The translations under genes were made by a program, and so were the position numbers. A stretch of DNA of 61,473 nucleotides, taken from the IMG/VR virus record IMGVR_UViG_3300035534_000060; one strand, 5' to 3'. Source of the DNA: a virus. Positions within the stretch are counted from its first letter, which is position 1, and every line of letters begins with the position of its first letter. The notes under the pieces are model-generated. The model was not told the origin of the DNA, made no database searches, and was given only the letters and a program-made list of their open reading frames with translations. Shown piece by piece: positions 1-53,635 of this stretch.

Positions 1-294
1 GCCAATGAAAAAGTATAGTGATGAAGATTTGATCGATATTATGGCACAGGTAGCCATAGAATTGGGAAGAACACCAAGGATGCAGGATATGCTAAATAGG
101 AAAGGTGGGCCATATCCATCACTTTAGCTACTAACAGCACTGGTTAACGTCTGGAAATTTAGAAAAGTTGCCGGACAATGCACTGAATGCGCATTTTTTG
201 ATAGTGCAAAGGGTGTGTGTATATATTACGATGATGGAGAATGTAAAGAAGATTGTGATAATTTCAAAATGTTAAAACGAGGAGGAGAAAATTA
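1..294 (+). repeat. Duplicated terminal mosaic: 1-127 copies 300-426; 128-294 is a slightly diverged copy of 61245-61411
   Basis: Direct comparison by eye; the second part differs at about 5 positions yet keeps an open frame (F->V, I->V, Y->D relative to the 61127..61411 protein). Confidence 0.85.
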
Positions 295-3812: not shown

Positions 3813-4925
3813 ATGTTAAAGGCTTACAAGTATAGAATGTATCCTGATGAAAAACAAATTGAAATGTTCCATAAACATTTTGGGGCATGTAGATACATCT
3901 ATAATTGGGCGTTGGAAAATAAAATTAAATCTTATGAACAAGAAGGCAAATCGATTTCAAGATTTGAATTAAATGGGAAAATTCGGATGTTGAAAATGGA
4001 GTTCGAATGGTTGAAAGAAATTAATTCTCAATCATTGCAAGGTGCTACTCTTAATCTGGATAATGCTTTTACCAAGTTTTTCCGTGAGAAAAAGGGTTTT
4101 CCTAAATTTAAATCAAAGAAAAATCCGGTACAATCATTTTCTGTTCCACAACATTATGAGGTGGATTTTGATGGTAACAAAGTGAAACTTCCCAAAATTG
4201 GTTGGATTAAGACAAAGTTACATAGACGTTTTGAAGGTAATTTGAAAACTGCAACAATATCAAAAACACCATCTGGTAAATATTTCATTAGTATTCTTGT
4301 AGATGACGAAAAAGATTTGCCTGCCAAACAAAAGTTTAATGAAAACAATACGGTTGGTATTGATGTGGGAATTAAGGATTTTGCCATTACTTCTAATGGT
4401 GAAAAAATAGATAATCCCAAGCATCTTAATAATTCAATAAAACGTTTGAAAGTATTGCAAAAGCGTCTCTCACGAAAACAAAAAGGTTCAAAAAACAGAG
4501 AAAAAGCAAGACAGGAGATAGCAAAACTTCATGAGAAAATCGCAAATCAGAGAAATGATTTCCAGCACAAGTTGACAAGTCGACTCATAAGCGAAAACCA
4601 AGCGATTGCACTGGAAACATTAAACATATCTGGAATGTTGAAAAATCATTGTCTTGCACAATCCATTAATGATGTATCATGGAGTTCTTTTGTAACCAAA
4701 TTGGAATATAAAGCAGAATGGTACGGAAAAACAATTCTCCGTATCGGACAGTTCGAGCCATCTACTAAAATATGCAATATCTGTGGGTATCATAACAAAA
4801 AGATTACACTTGCAGACCGTAAATGGCAATGTCCTGATTGTGGTGAAACTCATGACAGAGATGTCAATGCTGCAATTAACATTAAGAAGTTTGCCTTAAA
4901 TAAACAGAATTTGATAGGTATTTGA
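3813..4925 (+). CDS. tnpB: TnpB (OrfB) RNA-guided endonuclease-like protein
   Basis: N-terminal LKAYKYRMYPDEKQ; RuvC-like GIDVGIKD, ALETLN, HDRDVNAA; zinc finger CNICGYH...CPDCGETH. Confidence 0.85.
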   Translation: MLKAYKYRMYPDEKQIEMFHKHFGACRYIYNWALENKIKSYEQEGKSISRFELNGKIRMLKMEFEWLKEINSQSLQGATLNLDNAFTKFFREKKGFPKFKSKKNPVQSFSVPQHYEVDFDGNKVKLPKIGWIKTKLHRRFEGNLKTATISKTPSGKYFISILVDDEKDLPAKQKFNENNTVGIDVGIKDFAITSNGEKIDNPKHLNNSIKRLKVLQKRLSRKQKGSKNREKARQEIAKLHEKIANQRNDFQHKLTSRLISENQAIALETLNISGMLKNHCLAQSINDVSWSSFVTKLEYKAEWYGKTILRIGQFEPSTKICNICGYHNKKITLADRKWQCPDCGETHDRDVNAAINIKKFALNKQNLIGI

Positions 4926-47420: not shown

Positions 47421-47984
47421 GTGATACATATGCAAAAAACATGCACTCAATGTAATGATGAATTGATTATAGATGTGAATTGGACTGAAGCATTTAAGAG
47501 AAAAAGGATGTTTAAATGTAAAAGTTGCCATGCCAAAAATACTATGGAATGGAAACATCGTAATGGTACAAAATCAATGTCAGAAAATGACAAATGTTCA
47601 TCGTTCTTAGGTGTATATATCGCAGAGAGAGTTTTATCTAAAGTATTTAAAGATGTTAAAACTATGCCATATGGGCATTCTGGATATGATTTTGTGTGTA
47701 ATAAGGGTAAGAAGATTGATGTGAAAAGCGCATGTATGAAACATAGATATGATTGGAGTCCTTCATATTCATTCGTTTTAAGAAATAATCAAATTGCTGA
47801 TTATTTTCTATGCATTGCATTCGATAATAGAGAAGATTTGAACCCTCTACATTTGTGGTTATTACCAGCAGATATATTTAATCATCTGAATACTTTAAGT
47901 ATATCTGAATCTACATTAAATAAATGGGATGAATATAAATTAGATATTTCACCCACAGTAAAGCAATGTGAACAATTAAAATAA
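47421..47984 (+). CDS. Zinc-ribbon plus PD-(D/E)xK nuclease-like protein (paralog A)
   Basis: CTQC...CKSC; GYDFVCNKGKKIDVKSA fits D...DxK; long nucleotide identity with 48490..49110. Confidence 0.5.
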   Translation: MIHMQKTCTQCNDELIIDVNWTEAFKRKRMFKCKSCHAKNTMEWKHRNGTKSMSENDKCSSFLGVYIAERVLSKVFKDVKTMPYGHSGYDFVCNKGKKIDVKSACMKHRYDWSPSYSFVLRNNQIADYFLCIAFDNREDLNPLHLWLLPADIFNHLNTLSISESTLNKWDEYKLDISPTVKQCEQLK

Positions 47985-47995
47985 GGAGGTACAAT

Positions 47996-48490
47996 ATGAT
48001 AATATCAGGAAAGGAAGTAGCCGAGGCTATGATCGAAGGTGTTATAGACGAAAATGTACAGGTACAAGTCAATGGATATGATATGACTCTTAAAAAGGTC
48101 GAAGGGTATCATACAGATAGTAAGGGAATTCTAGACTTTGATAACAGTCAAAGGGAAAAGCCAAATGTTTCAGTAATACCATTTAACTTCAGAGACAGTG
48201 TATTCCTACGCAAGGGCAATTATCTTATCACACTTGACCCTAAGATGGATATACCACTTGATTGTATTGGGCGATTACTACCACGATCATCACTAGTGCG
48301 CATGGGCTGTACAATAGATGCTGGTGTGTTTGATGCCGGATTTTATGGTCGTGGGCAGGTTATGCTTACAGTACATAATTTGGCAGGCATAAAACTTTAC
48401 AAGAATGCCCGGGTTGCCCAAATGGTTTTCGATAGAATTGAAGGCGGCGAACTAGAAGAAGGGTACAACGGTATATATAATGAGGCTTAA
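47996..48490 (+). CDS. dUTPase/dCTP-deaminase-family protein
   Basis: GCTIDAGVFDAGFYGRGQV resembles the conserved dUTPase-fold motif. Confidence 0.5.
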   Translation: MIISGKEVAEAMIEGVIDENVQVQVNGYDMTLKKVEGYHTDSKGILDFDNSQREKPNVSVIPFNFRDSVFLRKGNYLITLDPKMDIPLDCIGRLLPRSSLVRMGCTIDAGVFDAGFYGRGQVMLTVHNLAGIKLYKNARVAQMVFDRIEGGELEEGYNGIYNEA

Positions 48491-49110
48491 TGATGTCTCA
48501 TTTTAAATTTTGTATTAAATGTGGTTGTGATCTAATACCATACAAAACATGGAGTCCATCATATGTGAGGAAAGGTGTCTATAAATGTAAAAAATGTGAT
48601 TATAAACACACATTAGAATGGCAGAAAAATAACAAAGAAAAGCACTTGGAACGAGCAAGAAATTATAATTATATGCGTGGTGGAAAACCCATGTCAGAAA
48701 ACAAAGAATGTTCGTCATTTCTTGGTTGTTATGTTGCTGAACGGGTGTTATCTAAGGTCTTCAAAGATGTTGAAGTAATGCCAAACAACAATCCGGGATA
48801 TGATTTTGTGTGTAATAAGGGTAAGAAGATTGATGTGAAGAGTTCGTGTGTGAGGAATATGGGTAAGAAATCTCCTATGTGGCATTTTAGTATAAGGAAA
48901 AATCTCATACCTGATTATTTTTTATGTCTGGCATTCGATAATAGAGAAGATTTGAACCCACTATATGCATGGTTATTACCTTCATATAAAATTAATTTTA
49001 AAACATTGGTAGGTATATCTGAATCTACGATTAATAAATGGGATAAATACAAGTTAGATATAGGAAAAGTAGAATTATATTGTAAGAATATGAAGGAGGA
49101 GTCACAATAA
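48490..49110 (+). CDS. Zinc-ribbon plus PD-(D/E)xK nuclease-like protein (paralog B)
   Basis: CIKCG...CKKC; same core as paralog A with near-identical nucleotide blocks (e.g. 48798-48842 vs 47688-47732). Confidence 0.5.
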   Translation: MMSHFKFCIKCGCDLIPYKTWSPSYVRKGVYKCKKCDYKHTLEWQKNNKEKHLERARNYNYMRGGKPMSENKECSSFLGCYVAERVLSKVFKDVEVMPNNNPGYDFVCNKGKKIDVKSSCVRNMGKKSPMWHFSIRKNLIPDYFLCLAFDNREDLNPLYAWLLPSYKINFKTLVGISESTINKWDKYKLDIGKVELYCKNMKEESQ

Positions 49111-49853
49111 TGGAATTTCTGGGTGCTAGGATAGTTGGCGGTCATAGATTCTATGACTTTATGTATAATGATAATAATGTAAGTTATCCATCAGTAACAA
49201 CTATGCTGAAGGTACTCCCAGAACCAGATGGCCTCAAATGGTTTAAAAATAATTATCCTGACGCAGAAAAATATACGGCTCGTAGGGCAATGATTGGCAC
49301 TACTTGTCATTATTTTTTTGAATGCCAGTGCGCATATCATTTGCCTGATCATACGCCCGAAATGGAAGAAGTAGCATTTGCAGAACATTTAGATGAAGAA
49401 GCACTGGAATCAATAGGGAATATCAATAGGAAAATAAAAAGTATCATGAGACAACATGATTTTAAACCCATTTCCCTTGAGGATACAGTGTGGTCAGATG
49501 TTCTAAAAGTGGCAGGGCGTGTTGATTATCGAGGCATGTTAAATGGTAAGAAAGTAATCTTAGATTTGAAAACTGCAAAGGCGTTTCATGATGAAACTAA
49601 GACAGAATATTTAAATCGTCTAGATTATATGCAGGATAATGATGGTAAAGCGCCACCCGGGTTTTTCAGTAAATTTGCACTACAATTAAGCACATACAAA
49701 CAGTGCTATAAAGAAAGATTTGGATGGGAAGCCGAGGAACTCTGGATTCTAAGAGTAAATGAGAATAATAAGCCAGAATTGAGACTTCAACCGGATGTAT
49801 TAGAAGATGTAAAAGATGTAAGGGAGATGTACTATGAAACATATGGAGTCTGA
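49110..49853 (+). CDS. PD-(D/E)xK-family nuclease (putative)
   Basis: GRVDYRG...KVILDLKTAK fits D...DxK. Confidence 0.35.
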   Translation: MEFLGARIVGGHRFYDFMYNDNNVSYPSVTTMLKVLPEPDGLKWFKNNYPDAEKYTARRAMIGTTCHYFFECQCAYHLPDHTPEMEEVAFAEHLDEEALESIGNINRKIKSIMRQHDFKPISLEDTVWSDVLKVAGRVDYRGMLNGKKVILDLKTAKAFHDETKTEYLNRLDYMQDNDGKAPPGFFSKFALQLSTYKQCYKERFGWEAEELWILRVNENNKPELRLQPDVLEDVKDVREMYYETYGV

Positions 49854-50610
49854 AATAACGCCAATGTATAATTTCTCAGGGGATGATATAGATCAACTCT
49901 ATAGAGATATAACAAGAACGATAGTAAGAGATGGGAAAGATATTGTTTTTGGACATGAAAAGAAGAAAGCCCGGGAAATACATGCTACAGTACAAATTTA
50001 TGGTAAAGGTATTAAGCGCCTTATGAATGGCAGTGTGCCCAGAAAATTCCCATTCCAAGGAGATAAACTTAAAGAATTTAGGAAGTTGGCAATCGCAGAT
50101 GATGTTAACCCATATGGGAATGATTATACATACCAAGAATTGATGAGAAAATTCCCAACAAATATTAATCAGTTGAATCAGATGGGGCTTATAGTTAAGG
50201 ATAGACAATCTACAGGCATGACAGATAACGGTATTGTAGGTGTATTGTATCATCCCAACATGTGGAAATGGGAAAATAAACCATGCTGGAATTGGCTACA
50301 GTTGAGATATTTGGGAAATAATGAGTATTCGTTGCGATTGCTCTTTAGATCGCATGATTATGGTATGGCTATGTGGGCAAATATGTCATTCATACTTTAC
50401 ATGATAAATTATTTTGTTATGAAGCCAAATGAATGTAAGATAACTGAAATAATTCTTACATCAACTAGCGCACACATCTATGAGAATGACCAAGACAGCG
50501 CTGTAGATGTTGGGGGGATACATTGGTCTAGGGAAGAGGATAAATCTTTACTACATCAATCTCTGGGCTTTCTCAGGGGTATATATGATTATGTTAAGGG
50601 TCAAAATTGA
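49834..50610 (+). CDS. Thymidylate-synthase-fold enzyme with variant active-site residues
   Basis: KPCWNWLQL (vs PCH), LLFRSHDYGMAMWANMSFIL (vs QRSxD...PFNIAS), TSAHIY (vs GDTHLY). Confidence 0.55.
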   Translation: MKHMESEITPMYNFSGDDIDQLYRDITRTIVRDGKDIVFGHEKKKAREIHATVQIYGKGIKRLMNGSVPRKFPFQGDKLKEFRKLAIADDVNPYGNDYTYQELMRKFPTNINQLNQMGLIVKDRQSTGMTDNGIVGVLYHPNMWKWENKPCWNWLQLRYLGNNEYSLRLLFRSHDYGMAMWANMSFILYMINYFVMKPNECKITEIILTSTSAHIYENDQDSAVDVGGIHWSREEDKSLLHQSLGFLRGIYDYVKGQN

Positions 50611-51593: not shown

Positions 51594-52315
51594 ATGCAGC
51601 AACTATGAAGAAAGCCATTGAAAAAGCCATATTTGCCGAAGGTATTGATGAAATTGTTATTAAGTCTGATGGCGAGACTGGTGTAATTCCTTCCATGGGT
51701 ATAGGCAAAGATAGATTGGCATATGTGACATTCCCATTTAATTTGGAAGGTGAATGGGGTATTACTGACCCAGAGAGACTTATTAAAAGTCTCAATAAAA
51801 TTAAGGGCGACCTAAAAATTAAACATGAAAAGAATAAATTCATACTTTCAGGCGGTGGTAAGCGATATAAGTTCCCAATTGTAAACGAGGTATGTGATAT
51901 TAGGACTGTTTTGCCCTTTACCCCTACCCGTAATGAGTCAGAAATAGTGTTCAACGGACAGCATGCCGCAGATATAGAGATTGAGTTTAAGCCAAATATG
52001 AAAGAAATTAAGGCTGCCCTAAAAAGTGAGAAAGTTTACGAAAATAGGGCAAATATTTTGTTCAAAGATGAAATTATGGATATATCTGGTAAAGATGACA
52101 CAGAGTTTGAAGCCGGAGATTCTATCAATGGTGAGGTGAAAAATTCTACAAAGTCTGAAGTTCGCACTATGATCACTGGACTGCAAGAGGTAATGAAAGT
52201 GGCAAATGATTTAACTATATTCACAGCAAATAATAATATGCTGTATATGGAAGATATAGATGAAGATATACATACAGTATTTGCAATAATGCCGCACTTG
52301 GAGGAACGATGCTAA
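51590..52315 (+). CDS. PCNA-like sliding clamp (putative)
   Basis: 241 aa directly after clamp loader; C-terminal AIMPHLEE resembles archaeal PCNA ends. Confidence 0.45.
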   Translation: MNAATMKKAIEKAIFAEGIDEIVIKSDGETGVIPSMGIGKDRLAYVTFPFNLEGEWGITDPERLIKSLNKIKGDLKIKHEKNKFILSGGGKRYKFPIVNEVCDIRTVLPFTPTRNESEIVFNGQHAADIEIEFKPNMKEIKAALKSEKVYENRANILFKDEIMDISGKDDTEFEAGDSINGEVKNSTKSEVRTMITGLQEVMKVANDLTIFTANNNMLYMEDIDEDIHTVFAIMPHLEERC

Positions 52316-52896
52316 GATTTAGATTTTTGGAAGAACTTTGGACAAATGAAGTATCATCACATTTACAATCAAATGGAAATGAAAAGGTTAATCATTGTGT
52401 GGCAATAAGTCTCACAGATATGGGTGGATACCCTATCTATGATTTTCTGGCCATGGAACTTGATCATATGTTGATAGCCCTTGATGAGATGGATGTTATA
52501 GCCAATTCATCTATTATTCCGGGTCACGCATATCTATATAACAAATTGAAATATAGTGTTTTAGCCGCAACTCAAAAATCTTTAACAACAAATGTTAGCA
52601 TTGATGGAATGCTGATAAAAAATGTTCAAGTTATGGATACATATAAAGATATAAACTTTATATTTACTGTATCATATCTTGAAATGTTTCAAGGCTATCC
52701 GATAACATTGTTGGGAATATTAAGAGTTATTGAGGAGGTGTGCGAGACTCATAATGTAGCAGACGATAAGCATATAAACCTGTACATCAATATAGGGTAT
52801 TCATTCATAAACCAACGATTTAAGAATAAAGCAGAAGAATTTGTAAAAATAAAAAGGGAGGAATTTAATGGAACAACTCAAGAAACAGACATATAA
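52309..52896 (+). CDS. Hypothetical protein
   Basis: 195-aa ORF. Confidence 0.4.
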   Translation: MLRFRFLEELWTNEVSSHLQSNGNEKVNHCVAISLTDMGGYPIYDFLAMELDHMLIALDEMDVIANSSIIPGHAYLYNKLKYSVLAATQKSLTTNVSIDGMLIKNVQVMDTYKDINFIFTVSYLEMFQGYPITLLGILRVIEEVCETHNVADDKHINLYINIGYSFINQRFKNKAEEFVKIKREEFNGTTQETDI

Positions 52897-53635
52897 ATCA
52901 CCTTTAAGATACCCCGGAGGAAAAACTAGAGCAATCAAATATATTTATCCATATATCCCTGCTAATGTGACCGAATTATGCTCACCTTTTTTAGGTGGAG
53001 CATCTTTTGAACTATTTTTATCTAGTAAAGGCATAAAAATATATGGTTATGACTTATTTGAACCATTAACTAATTTTTGGAATGTTTTATTAAATAATTC
53101 ATTTCAATTATATGAAACGGTTAAAAAAATGCATCCTATAAGTAAAGAATATTTTTATAAATTGAGAAATGAATATGATAAATATAATAATATAAATAAA
53201 GCCGCAATATTTTATATGTTGAATAGATCATCATTTTCAGGTGCAACATTTTCAGGAGGTATGAGTAAAGGACATCCAAGGTTTACAGAATCTTCTATAA
53301 ACAAATTATATAATTTTAAAAATAATTTAATATCGGTAGAAAATGCTGATTTTGAAATTGCTATAAATAATCATCCTACAAGTTTTCTATATTTAGACCC
53401 ACCATATCTTATTAATGATAATCTTTATGGTGATAAGGGGAATATGCATAAATATTTTGACCATAAAAGATTATATAACATTTTATCTAAAAGAGATGAT
53501 TGGATATTATCATATAATGATTGTAAATTTATACGAGAATTATATTCTGATTATAATATAGTAGATTTGGATTGGAAATATGGTATGTCAAAAAATAAAA
53601 AGAGTAGCGAAATTTTAATAATAAACAAGGAGTGA
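52868..53635 (+). CDS. DNA N6-adenine methyltransferase (Dam-like)
   Basis: N-terminal RYPGGK and FLGGAS; DPPY catalytic motif (YLDPPYL). Confidence 0.75.
   Translation: MEQLKKQTYKSPLRYPGGKTRAIKYIYPYIPANVTELCSPFLGGASFELFLSSKGIKIYGYDLFEPLTNFWNVLLNNSFQLYETVKKMHPISKEYFYKLRNEYDKYNNINKAAIFYMLNRSSFSGATFSGGMSKGHPRFTESSINKLYNFKNNLISVENADFEIAINNHPTSFLYLDPPYLINDNLYGDKGNMHKYFDHKRLYNILSKRDDWILSYNDCKFIRELYSDYNIVDLDWKYGMSKNKKSSEILIINKE

What the first reader, a model, noticed from the sequence alone, without database searches (positions are those of the whole stretch)
49834..50610. Thymidylate-synthase-fold enzyme with substituted catalytic-neighbourhood residues: possible DNA base hypermodification
The protein aligns to the ThyA core motifs but replaces conserved residues: PCH becomes PCW, QRSxD becomes FRSHD, and GDTHLY becomes TSAHIY, while the nucleophile Cys and the Asn of the PFNIAS-equivalent segment are kept. 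Thymidylate-synthase paralogs with altered active sites in viruses often act as pyrimidine hydroxymethylases. Together with the adjacent dUTPase-like gene, the NDT-like gene, the ribonucleotide reductase and a Dam-like methyltransferase, this suggests the virus may modify its DNA.
Basis: partly seen in the sequence, partly recalled or inferred. Interest (0 to 1): 0.55.

Follow-up and report, generated by a model that had tools for sequence, protein, structure and literature searches.

The report
Archaeal-type thymidylate synthase in methanogen virus
The gene is a real thymidylate-synthase-fold enzyme, but its "odd" residues are the normal signature of the archaeal (methanogen) branch of that family, so it most likely just makes thymidylate for a virus of a methanogenic archaeon rather than an exotic DNA base.

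Summary
The inference of base hypermodification is not supported.

- **Closest curated family.** This is methanogen-type ThyA (TIGR03283: 75 bits, full length, below its 174.55 cut-off).
- **The "substitutions" are lineage signatures.** Bona fide methanogen ThyAs share FRS[HN]D, SxSAHIYExD, YTY, a hydrophobic residue after the Cys, a polar residue at E. coli L143 and the missing C-terminal lid.
- **Cellular members.** The subfamily, otherwise seen on metagenomic contigs (five of six inspected were virus-like), is also the only annotated thyA of Methanimicrococcus blatticola. Its relatives keep it in one conserved chromosomal context, after loss of the canonical thyA and DHFR.
- **Uracil-type residues.** Asn177 and Asp169 equivalents are kept. 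That excludes dCMP hydroxymethylase and 5-hydroxy-dCMP synthase signatures.
- **No partner genes.** The window is a complete 61.4-kb genome, probably of a Methanohalophilus virus. It has an archaeal dUTPase and a class II RNR, but no pathway genes recognised by Pfam or PHROGs; many ORFs have no match.
- **Site avoidance.** T-containing restriction sites are strongly avoided.

What is specific to this subfamily is the loss of three of the four phosphate-binding arginines. The chemistry of archaeal ThyA remains untested.

The parts
49834..50610 (+). Archaeal-type ThyA-family protein (258 aa). It belongs to a divergent subfamily seen on virus-like metagenomic contigs and in gut Methanosarcinaceae chromosomes, and is a presumed thymidylate synthase. 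Residues equivalent to E. coli positions: nucleophile C151 (C146); R172/S173/D175 (R166/S167/D169); N183 (N177); H214/Y216 (H207/Y209); Y100 (Y94).
47996..48490 (+). Archaeal-type dUTPase of the dCTP-deaminase fold. It would supply dUMP and remove dUTP.
   Evidence: Pfam DCD 78 bits and dUTPase 47 bits. NCBIfam NF002598 dUTPase scores 132 bits against a cut-off of 130. A DCD/dUTPase gene lies upstream of the TS homolog in the syntenic contigs L001/L002 and L025.
56073..58307 (+). Ribonucleotide reductase, barrel domain plus TSCPD domain (class II-like). It supplies deoxynucleotides.
   Evidence: Pfam Ribonuc_red_lgC 297 bits and TSCPD 28 bits. Syntenic relatives carry NrdD in the same position.
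49110..49853 (+). PD-(D/E)XK-type exonuclease immediately upstream, overlapping the TS start by 20 nt. It is part of the same replication module and has no inferred role in the TS reaction.
   Evidence: PHROG 298 exonuclease, 96 bits. The order DCD - PDDEXK - TS - RFC - clamp - PolB is conserved in L025.
58552..58938 (+). NDT-like / DUF4406 protein. It is a nucleotide-metabolism accessory of unknown specificity.
   Evidence: Pfam DUF4406 55 bits; Nuc_deoxyrib_tr 28.3 bits, just below its 28.8 cut-off. PHROG 355, 99 bits.
52868..53635 (+). D12-class (Dam-like) N6-adenine DNA methyltransferase. It is a variable accessory gene and is not linked to the TS homolog.
   Evidence: Pfam MethyltransfD12 113 bits. 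PHROG 56, 210 bits. It is absent from the 97%-identical relative L027, where the preceding ORF abuts PolB.

Best explanation
The gene encodes a thymidylate synthase of the archaeal (methanogen-lineage) ThyA type, carried as an auxiliary nucleotide-metabolism gene by a tailed virus of a methanogenic archaeon. The host is probably Methanohalophilus or a close Methanosarcinaceae relative.

Inferred pathway:
1. The viral RNR makes deoxynucleotides.
2. The viral archaeal-type dUTPase converts dUTP to dUMP.
3. The ThyA homolog attacks C6 of dUMP with Cys151. It holds the uracil with Asn183 and the phosphate with Arg172/Ser173, and uses Asp175, His214, Tyr216 and Tyr100 as in other TS enzymes.
4. It transfers a one-carbon unit from a reduced methylene-pterin (methylene-H4MPT/H4SPT or folate) to give dTMP for replication of a 65% A+T genome.

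Shown here: the fold, the conserved catalytic residues, the family relationships, the gene context and the cellular orthologs.

Inferred only: the product (dTMP), the C1 donor and how the phosphate is bound. Three of the four classical phosphate-binding arginines are missing. The subfamily-specific residues K44, R47, K149 and R168 are candidate replacements.
For: 1. **TS fold and catalytic set.**
   - Pfam, PHROG and PDB profile hits.
   - C151, R172, S173, N183, Y98 and Y100 are invariant in all 231 aligned archaeal-type sequences. D175 and H214 are kept in 218 and 216 of them. The exceptions are almost all in one divergent subclade.
2. **Closest curated family.** It is methanogen-type ThyA, TIGR03283: 75 bits, E 5e-21, model positions 6-200 of 201.
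Proteins that pass the TIGR03283 cut-off carry the same motifs. These are P0173, P0182, P0189, P0194, P0196 and P0208 (Methanosphaera cuniculi ThyA).
4. **Cellular orthologs.**
   - They share 43-47% identity with the window protein and all subfamily-invariant residues.
   - They sit in one chromosomal context (TSR3 - thyA - cobA - hemD) in Methanimicrococcus and Methanolapillus. Shorter Methanofrustulum and Methanosarcinaceae MAG contigs also carry the gene.
   - In M. blatticola this gene (MBLAb1111) is the only thyA listed. No thyX is listed. The canonical Methanosarcina thyA family and a DHFR are listed as lost (PMC9723798, supplementary file 8).
   - The authors treat it as the dTMP-forming enzyme fed by methylene-H4MPT (also PMC11362671).
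5. **Context fits dTMP supply.** A dUTPase lies upstream here and in L001 and L025. A thymidylate-kinase-like gene directly abuts the homolog in L009, L026 and L028.
6. **No partner genes.** The window is a complete genome with a 58-bp terminal overlap. Scans of its ORFs found no second TS, no dNMP kinase, no glycosyl- or other group-transferase and no DNA kinase.
7. **Restriction-site avoidance.** Observed against Markov expectation: AGCT 9 vs 123, GATC 95 vs 225, GATATC 1 vs 22, CTGCAG 0 vs 14. This implies thymine-containing sites are exposed to restriction.
8. **Precedent.** Viral thymidylate synthases are described as dTMP-boosting auxiliary genes in archaeal viruses, and one is proposed to have displaced the host gene (ANME-1 ThyX, PMC9894754).
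Against: - No archaeal-type ThyA has had full dTMP-forming activity reconstituted. PMC9931769 notes that archaeal TS enzymes lack experimental characterisation. From my own knowledge, the Methanobacterium enzyme of Krone et al. 1994 showed only partial reactions.
- The protein scores well below the TIGR03283 equivalog cut-off (75 vs 174.55 bits).
- It lacks equivalents of E. coli R21, R126 and R127.
- The argument from cells is indirect. It assumes M. blatticola makes rather than salvages thymidylate, and that viral and cellular members (43-47% identity) share one product.
- E. coli E58, W80 and W83 have no reliably aligned equivalents.
Confidence: 0.7

Rival explanations
1. It is a dUMP hydroxymethylase. 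It would make 5-hydroxymethyl-dUMP that replaces, or is later elaborated on, thymine in the viral DNA.
For: - Asn at the N177 position makes uracil the substrate.
- The L143 position is polar (N148; E/D/N/S across the family). PMC13326640 associates this with hydroxymethylation.
- There is no C-terminal lid.
- The N-terminal 30 residues resemble SPO1 gp29.
- The window clade alone has lost both R126 and R127 equivalents.
Against: - Every one of these sequence features is also present in proteins that pass the methanogen ThyA equivalog cut-off, so they do not discriminate.
- The family profile scores SPO1 gp29 no better than E. coli ThyA (34.0 vs 36.8 bits).
- Cellular members are the only thyA in M. 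blatticola.
- The complete genome shows no hmdUMP kinase, no dTTP/dTMP-removing enzyme, no transferase and no 5-hmU DNA kinase.
- T-containing restriction sites are strongly avoided.
Confidence: 0.12
2. It is a TS-fold enzyme with a changed substrate or cofactor mode. With three phosphate-binding arginines gone, it may bind something other than a free 5'-monophosphate (a nucleoside, a di- or triphosphate, or a polynucleotide). Alternatively it may have a rebuilt cofactor pocket specific for methanopterin-type pterins.
For: - E. coli R21, R126 and R127 equivalents are replaced by F39-G40, N132 and G133.
- Residues invariant or nearly invariant in the subfamily are absent from canonical archaeal ThyA: F39, G40, K44, A46, W154, R168, E205.
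- The segment between the second strand and the YTY motif is much shorter than in E. coli ThyA, and E58/W80/W83 do not align.
- M. blatticola lost DHFR together with its canonical thyA, yet kept Mer and Mtr, which make methylene-H4MPT.
Against: - R172/S173 are invariant. R166 is the one arginine essential in bacterial TS (established TS mutagenesis literature, from my own knowledge).
- Most subfamily members keep the R127 equivalent (96 of 131).
- dUTPase and thymidylate-kinase neighbours fit a dUMP-to-dTMP step.
- No coordinates were available to inspect the modelled pocket.
Confidence: 0.13
3. It is a flavin-dependent pyrimidine C5-hydroxylase like RB69 gp48 or HY126 AfhB, or a cytosine-specific hydroxymethylase like T4 gp42 or MilA.
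Against: - The diagnostic N177D and D169N substitutions described in PMC13326640 are both absent. N183 is invariant, and D175 is kept in the window protein and in 218 of 231 aligned relatives.
- The family profile scores RB69 gp48 and T4 gp42 at only 10.6 and 5.3 bits.
- The inferred host is a strict anaerobe, which is incompatible with an O2-dependent monooxygenase (inference).
Confidence: 0.03

Closest known systems
Methanogen-type (archaeal) thymidylate synthase ThyA, NCBIfam TIGR03283 thy_syn_methano (for example Methanosphaera cuniculi WP_095609220.1)
   Same: - It is the best-scoring curated family, aligned end to end.
- Shared motifs: YTY, P-C-hydrophobic, F/W-R-S-H/N-D, x-A/P-N, S-x-S-A-H-I-Y-E-x-D, and a polar residue at E. 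coli L143.
- The length is about 210-260 aa with no C-terminal lid.
   Different: - It scores 75 bits against a cut-off of 174.55.
- The 'DER' (R21) and 'SRR' (R126/R127) motifs are replaced by 'FG' and 'DNG'.
- It has extra subfamily-invariant residues (K44, R168, E205, W154), a longer helical insert and a C-terminal amphipathic helix.
thyA of Methanimicrococcus blatticola (MBLAb1111 / KJR02_05890) and orthologs in Methanolapillus and Methanofrustulum
   Same: - Same subfamily, at 43-47% identity.
- All subfamily-invariant residues are shared, including loss of the R21 and R126 equivalents.
- NCBI and KEGG annotate it as thymidylate synthase, and Thomas et al. 2021 treat it as the housekeeping ThyA.
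   Different: - It is cellular and sits in a conserved chromosomal context.
- It has Q rather than G at the R127 position and PPCFNWY rather than KPCWNWL around the Cys.
Bacterial/eukaryotic ThyA (E. coli ThyA, PDB 1aob/2tsc)
   Same: Same fold. The equivalents of C146, R166, S167, D169, N177, H207, Y209, Y94 and Q151 are all kept.
   Different: - H147 is W, Q165 is F, C168 is H and D205 is S.
- R21, R126 and R127 are lost.
- There is no aligned E58/W80/W83.
- The C-terminal ~40 residues that close over the folate are absent.
SPO1 gp29 dUMP hydroxymethylase
   Same: Asn at the N177 position, a polar residue at L143 and a similar N-terminal helix ('Y-x-F-S-G...QLY-x-D-I').
   Different: - SPO1 gp29 keeps the R21 and R126 equivalents and has a 140-aa C-terminal extension.
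- The profile score (34 bits) is no better than for E. coli ThyA.
- SPO1 carries companion genes for hmU DNA. This genome shows none.
Flavin-dependent 5-hydroxy-dCMP synthases (RB69 gp48, DLP3 gp80, HY126 AfhB; PDB 9iqu/9iqc)
   Different: They carry N177D, L143E and the diagnostic D169N. The window protein has N183 and D175. Sequence similarity is negligible (10.6 bits).
Viral ThyX of ANME-1 viruses (Laso-Perez, Wu et al. 2023)
   Same: The biological role is the same. It is an archaeal-virus-borne thymidylate synthase interpreted as boosting dTMP supply, with evidence that the viral version displaced the host thyA. This parallels the gut Methanosarcinaceae case seen here.
   Different: ThyX is an unrelated fold with flavin-dependent chemistry.

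Membership tests
Thymidylate synthase / dCMP hydroxymethylase superfamily (PF00303 fold) | TS alpha/beta fold | tested here: met
Thymidylate synthase / dCMP hydroxymethylase superfamily (PF00303 fold) | Catalytic Cys in a P-C motif, plus the R-S-x-D, H-x-Y and Tyr94 equivalents | tested here: met
   C151, R172/S173/D175, H214/Y216 and Y100 are all present in the window protein. The Cys, Arg, Ser and both Tyr of the YTY motif are invariant across 231 aligned relatives. D175, H214 and Y216 are kept in 218, 216 and 205 of them.
Methanogen-type ThyA (TIGR03283) | Reaches the curated equivalog score | tested here: not met
   75.1 bits against a cut-off of 174.55. Cellular Methanolapillus members score 77 bits.
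Methanogen-type ThyA (TIGR03283) | Lineage motifs (YTY, PC-hydrophobic, F/W-RS-H/N-D, SxSAHIYExD) and the short form without a C-terminal lid | tested here: met
   Alignment with six proteins that pass the cut-off. Motif table and column counts.
Methanogen-type ThyA (TIGR03283) | Arginines equivalent to E. coli R21 ('DER') and R126/R127 ('SRR') | tested here: not met
   The window has F39-G40 and N132-G133. The R126 position is N in 127 of 131 subfamily members, and R in 51 of the 75 more distant archaeal-type relatives, which include all six proteins that pass the cut-off.
Methanogen-type ThyA (TIGR03283) | Forms dTMP from dUMP | not testable with these tools
   This is inferred only. A subfamily member is the sole annotated thyA of M. 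blatticola.
Bacterial/eukaryotic ThyA (TIGR03284, NF002497) | Equivalog score, four-arginine phosphate cage, C-terminal lid contacting folate | tested here: not met
   17-23 bits against cut-offs of 108-327. Only the R166 equivalent is kept. The protein ends in a variable helix, with no counterpart of E. coli residues 225-264.
dUMP hydroxymethylase (SPO1 gp29 type) | Asn at N177 together with a polar residue at L143 | tested here: inconclusive
   Both are present (N183, N148). Both are equally present in proteins that pass the methanogen ThyA cut-off, so the rule does not discriminate in this lineage.
dUMP hydroxymethylase (SPO1 gp29 type) | Companion genes for hmU DNA (hmdUMP kinase, dTTP/dTMP exclusion, downstream transferases or a DNA kinase) | tested here: not met
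   None was found in the complete 61.4-kb genome. Many small ORFs have no family match, so a novel partner cannot be excluded.
dUMP hydroxymethylase (SPO1 gp29 type) | 5-hmU or a derivative in virion DNA | not testable with these tools
   There is only indirect evidence against it: strong avoidance of T-containing palindromes.
5-hydroxy-dCMP synthase (flavin-dependent TS homologs) | N177D and diagnostic D169N (PMC13326640) | tested here: not met
   N183 and D175 are retained.
dCMP / CMP hydroxymethylase (T4 gp42, MilA) | Asp at the N177 position, which confers cytosine specificity | tested here: not met
   N183 is invariant. The family profile scores T4 gp42 at 5.3 bits.

The most novel reading that the evidence does not exclude
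In the window's clade, the only one that has lost both R126 and R127 equivalents, the enzyme may no longer be a plain thymidylate synthase. It could hydroxymethylate dUMP. That would give the first archaeal virus with thymine replaced by 5-hmU or a derivative.

A milder version: this virus-associated subfamily may be the methylene-tetrahydromethanopterin-specific ThyA. Virus-to-cell transfer would then have let gut Methanosarcinaceae discard their canonical thyA and DHFR.
Probability: 0.1. Interest if true: 0.7.

Novelty: new member of a known kind. Interest (0 to 1): 0.3.

Why it matters
As it stands, this is an ordinary auxiliary nucleotide-metabolism gene: a thymidylate synthase in a virus of a methanogen. 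The practical lesson is that bacterial ThyA residue rules do not transfer to the archaeal ThyA lineage. Applied there, the PCH, QRSxD, GDTHLY and L143 rules would wrongly flag every methanogen ThyA as a modification enzyme.

Three side results have some value:
- There is a coherent, uncurated ThyA subfamily. It has about 130 members at 90% clustering. It is seen on virus-like metagenomic contigs and in gut Methanosarcinaceae, and it lacks three of the four classical phosphate-binding arginines.
- This subfamily appears to have displaced the canonical thyA, and a DHFR, in gut Methanosarcinaceae. This parallels the viral ThyX displacement proposed for ANME-1.
- It offers a tractable protein for the unresolved question of which C1 donor archaeal ThyA enzymes use.

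Tried and rejected
- **Phage collection.** tblastn and megablast against the annotated phage collection gave no match. The virus has no close isolate.
- **AFDB50 fold library.** It was unavailable.
- **BFVD.** It gave only distant TS-fold hits at TM about 0.6.
- **tRNA scan.** None found.
- **Cytosine-specific and hydroxylase families.** Membership of 5-hydroxy-dCMP synthases, T4-type dCMP hydroxymethylases and MilA was considered because they top the structural searches. It was rejected on the N177 and D169 signatures and on negligible profile scores.
- **The L143 rule.** The "hydrophobic means methyl, acidic means hydroxymethyl" rule was tested and found non-discriminating here. Proteins that pass the methanogen ThyA cut-off have E/D at that position.
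- **E. coli E58/W80/W83.** Mapping by sequence alignment gave unstable or gapped columns. No claim is made about them.
- **Second TS in Methanimicrococcus genomes.** I relied on the published gene tables instead.
- **The phylogeny.** The tree is neighbour-joining without support values. The virus-to-cell direction of transfer is only suggested.
Full report
**Observation**

The ORF 49834-50610 (+) encodes 258 aa. It matches Pfam Thymidylat_synt only marginally (25.9 bits, cut-off 24.3) and PHROG 160.

The relationship to TS is nevertheless solid:
- A profile of 42 metagenomic homologs hits solved thymidylate synthases at E = 3.5e-14.
- An AlphaFold model built on that alignment has pLDDT 91.7.

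They align to E. coli PCH, QRSCD, PFNIAS and GDTHLY.

Against a 97%-identical relative there are 13 synonymous and 8 non-synonymous codon differences, none at invariant positions. The gene is under purifying selection.

**What family it belongs to**

The decisive result is from NCBIfam. The best match, over the whole length, is TIGR03283 "thy_syn_methano", the methanogen-type ThyA (75 bits, E 5e-21). Bacterial ThyA models score 17-23 bits.

I recovered proteins that pass the TIGR03283 cut-off from an exhaustive HMMER search. One of them is the ThyA of Methanosphaera cuniculi.

Aligning them with the window protein, and tabulating 231 relatives, shows what the archaeal lineage shares:
- YTY in place of PVY.
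- P-C followed by L/M/F/W rather than H.
- F/W-R-S-H/N/R-D.
- S-x-S-A/L-H-I-Y-E-x-D.
- A polar E/D/N/S at the E. coli L143 position.
- No counterpart of the E. coli C-terminal 40 residues.

They are not evidence of a new function.

**What is specific to this subfamily**

- The window protein and about 130 relatives form a distinct group that scores only about 75 bits on TIGR03283, and 37-87 bits across the members tested.
- The group has its own invariant or nearly invariant residues: F39, G40, K44, A46, W154, R168 and E205.
- It lacks the arginines equivalent to E. coli R21 and R126. The R126 position is N in 127 of 131 members.
- The R127 equivalent is kept in most members, but it is G in the window's clade and Q in the cellular clade.
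- Only the R166/S167 pair of the classical phosphate site remains.
- E. coli E58, W80 and W83 could not be aligned reliably.

**Cellular members**

A profile search and a scan of species-representative genomes found the subfamily in Methanimicrococcus, Methanolapillus and Methanofrustulum, which are gut Methanosarcinaceae.

In the Methanimicrococcus and Methanolapillus loci examined, the gene sits in the same chromosomal context: TSR3 - thyA - cobA - hemD, with catalase nearby in most.

The published M. blatticola gene tables (PMC9723798, supplementary file 8) show that:
- This gene (MBLAb1111) is the only thyA, and no thyX is listed.
- It belongs to a gene family separate from the Methanosarcina thyA.
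- The canonical Methanosarcina thyA family (posterior 0.99998) and a DHFR are listed as lost.

The authors assume it makes dTMP from methylene-H4MPT, supplied by the retained Mer and Mtr.

In a neighbour-joining tree the cellular clade nests among sequences of which several come from virus-like contigs. This suggests transfer from virus to cell. The situation parallels the viral ThyX displacement proposed for ANME-1.

**Genomic context**

The window begins and ends with the same 58 bp, so it is a complete genome of about 61.4 kb. It is a tailed virus with terminase, an HK97-like capsid protein and a tail tape-measure protein.

It has an archaeal-style replication module:
- AEP primase
- XPD-like helicase
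- RecU/Hjc-like resolvase
- RFC-like clamp loader
- family B polymerase

Its TnpB is 92% identical to that of Methanohalophilus sp. DAL1 and 84% identical to that of M. mahii. This points to a Methanohalophilus-like host.

Upstream of the TS gene lies a dUTPase that passes the archaeal dUTPase equivalog cut-off (132 vs 130 bits). The order dUTPase - exonuclease - TS - RFC - clamp - PolB - RNR recurs in related contigs. In other members a thymidylate-kinase-like gene abuts the TS gene.

Scanning 76 ORFs of the genome found no second TS, no dNMP kinase, no glycosyl- or other transferase and no DNA kinase. The Dam-like methyltransferase is missing from a 97%-identical relative.

**An independent sequence argument**

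With a second-order Markov expectation, observed against expected counts are:

| Site | Observed | Expected |
|---|---|---|
| AGCT | 9 | 123 |
| GATC | 95 | 225 |
| CGCG | 0 | 34 |
| GATATC | 1 | 22 |
| CTGCAG | 0 | 14 |

Such avoidance is expected for DNA that restriction enzymes can cut. It is a soft argument against global thymine hypermodification.

**Alternatives**

- *dCMP hydroxymethylase, CMP hydroxymethylase or flavin-dependent 5-hydroxy-dCMP synthase.* The two best structural matches, the flavin-dependent dCMP hydroxylase (9iqc/9iqu) and CMP hydroxymethylase MilA, are of this kind; T4 dCMP hydroxymethylase ranks below ThyA. They are excluded by the retained Asn183 and Asp175. The published signatures are N177D and D169N. 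Profile scores are also near zero.
- *dUMP hydroxymethylase.* This cannot be excluded by sequence. However, every feature that favours it is shared with housekeeping methanogen ThyAs. The family is no closer to SPO1 gp29 than to E. coli ThyA (34.0 vs 36.8 bits).
- *Changed substrate or cofactor mode.* This is suggested by the lost arginines, and by the co-loss of DHFR in cells that adopted this subfamily. It remains possible and is the most interesting open point.

**Caveat on the known kind itself**

Archaeal ThyA enzymes have not been properly characterised. "Thymidylate synthase" is therefore an inference from genomics, for the canonical methanogen family as well as for this one.

**Verdict**

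The fold and the nucleotide-metabolism context are right. The hypermodification reading is not supported.

The gene is best described as a virus-borne, divergent archaeal-type thymidylate synthase. It works with the viral dUTPase and RNR to supply dTMP (confidence about 0.7). I rate it a new member of a known kind, of modest interest (0.3).

The residual possibility of different chemistry has a probability of about 0.1. It would be notable if true.

Noticed in passing
window 1-58 and 61416-61473: The first 58 bp are identical to the last 58 bp. The window is therefore a complete circular, or circularly permuted, viral genome of about 61,415 bp.
   Followed up: partly
whole window: Short palindromes are extremely avoided relative to a second-order Markov expectation. 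Observed vs expected: AGCT 9 vs 123, GATC 95 vs 225, CGCG 0 vs 34, CTAG 68 vs 125, GATATC 1 vs 22, CTGCAG 0 vs 14. This looks like restriction-site avoidance. GATC is avoided even though the genome encodes a Dam-class methyltransferase.
   Followed up: partly
window 3813-4925 (+): There is an IS200/IS605 TnpB (OrfB_IS605 plus Cas12f-like TNB domain). It is 92% identical to TnpB of Methanohalophilus sp. DAL1 and 84% identical to that of M. mahii. This is the best clue to the host.
   Followed up: yes
window 47421-47984 and 48490-49110 (+): Two paralogous ORFs bracket the dUTPase gene. Each has an N-terminal zinc ribbon and a DUF6998-like C-terminal region, with a shared '...CSSFLG.Y.AERVLSKVFKDV...GYDFVCNKGKKIDVKS...' block. 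They are absent from the syntenic contig L025. They may be homing-endonuclease-like insertions.
   Followed up: no
window 52868-53635 (+); L027:3846-6288: The Dam-like methyltransferase is a recent insertion or deletion. In the relative L027, whose TS protein is 97% identical, the 196-aa ORF homologous to 52309-52896 directly abuts PolB. The 195-aa ORF 52309-52896 itself has no family match.
   Followed up: partly
L008, L010, L013, L017, L020, L021, L024 (gut Methanosarcinaceae chromosomes): The same ThyA subfamily sits in a conserved TSR3 - thyA - cobA - hemD context. It is the only annotated thyA of M. blatticola, which lost the canonical thyA and a DHFR. The cellular clade nests among sequences of which several are from virus-like contigs in an NJ tree. 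This looks like xenologous displacement, possibly of viral origin.
   Followed up: partly
P0088, P0099, P0100, P0105, P0107-P0112, P0115, P0119, P0120; L028:2562-3272: A subclade of the family keeps the Cys, Arg, Ser and Asn but changes other catalytic positions. The D169 equivalent becomes A or C (FRSHAY). H207 becomes E or Q, and Y209 becomes E or G (SAEIEY). One member still lies next to a thymidylate-kinase-like gene in an MCM-encoding archaeal element. These are better candidates for altered chemistry than the window protein.
   Followed up: partly
L004:12197-13270: A virus-like contig carrying a family member (P0039) also encodes a multihaem cytochrome c with a PGF-CTERM archaeal sorting signal, and an integrase. 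This suggests a host among cytochrome-rich Methanosarcinales or ANME-type archaea.
   Followed up: no
window 56073-58307; L001:16435-18186; L025:13437-16795: The ribonucleotide reductase class differs among otherwise syntenic relatives. It is a class II-like barrel plus TSCPD domain here. Relatives carry anaerobic NrdD, with an NrdG activase, a glutaredoxin and an intein in L025.
   Followed up: no
L001:8702-10001: In the syntenic contig L001, a small MGS-like-domain gene and a roughly 930-bp stretch with no called gene precede the TS homolog. I did not examine this stretch.
   Followed up: no
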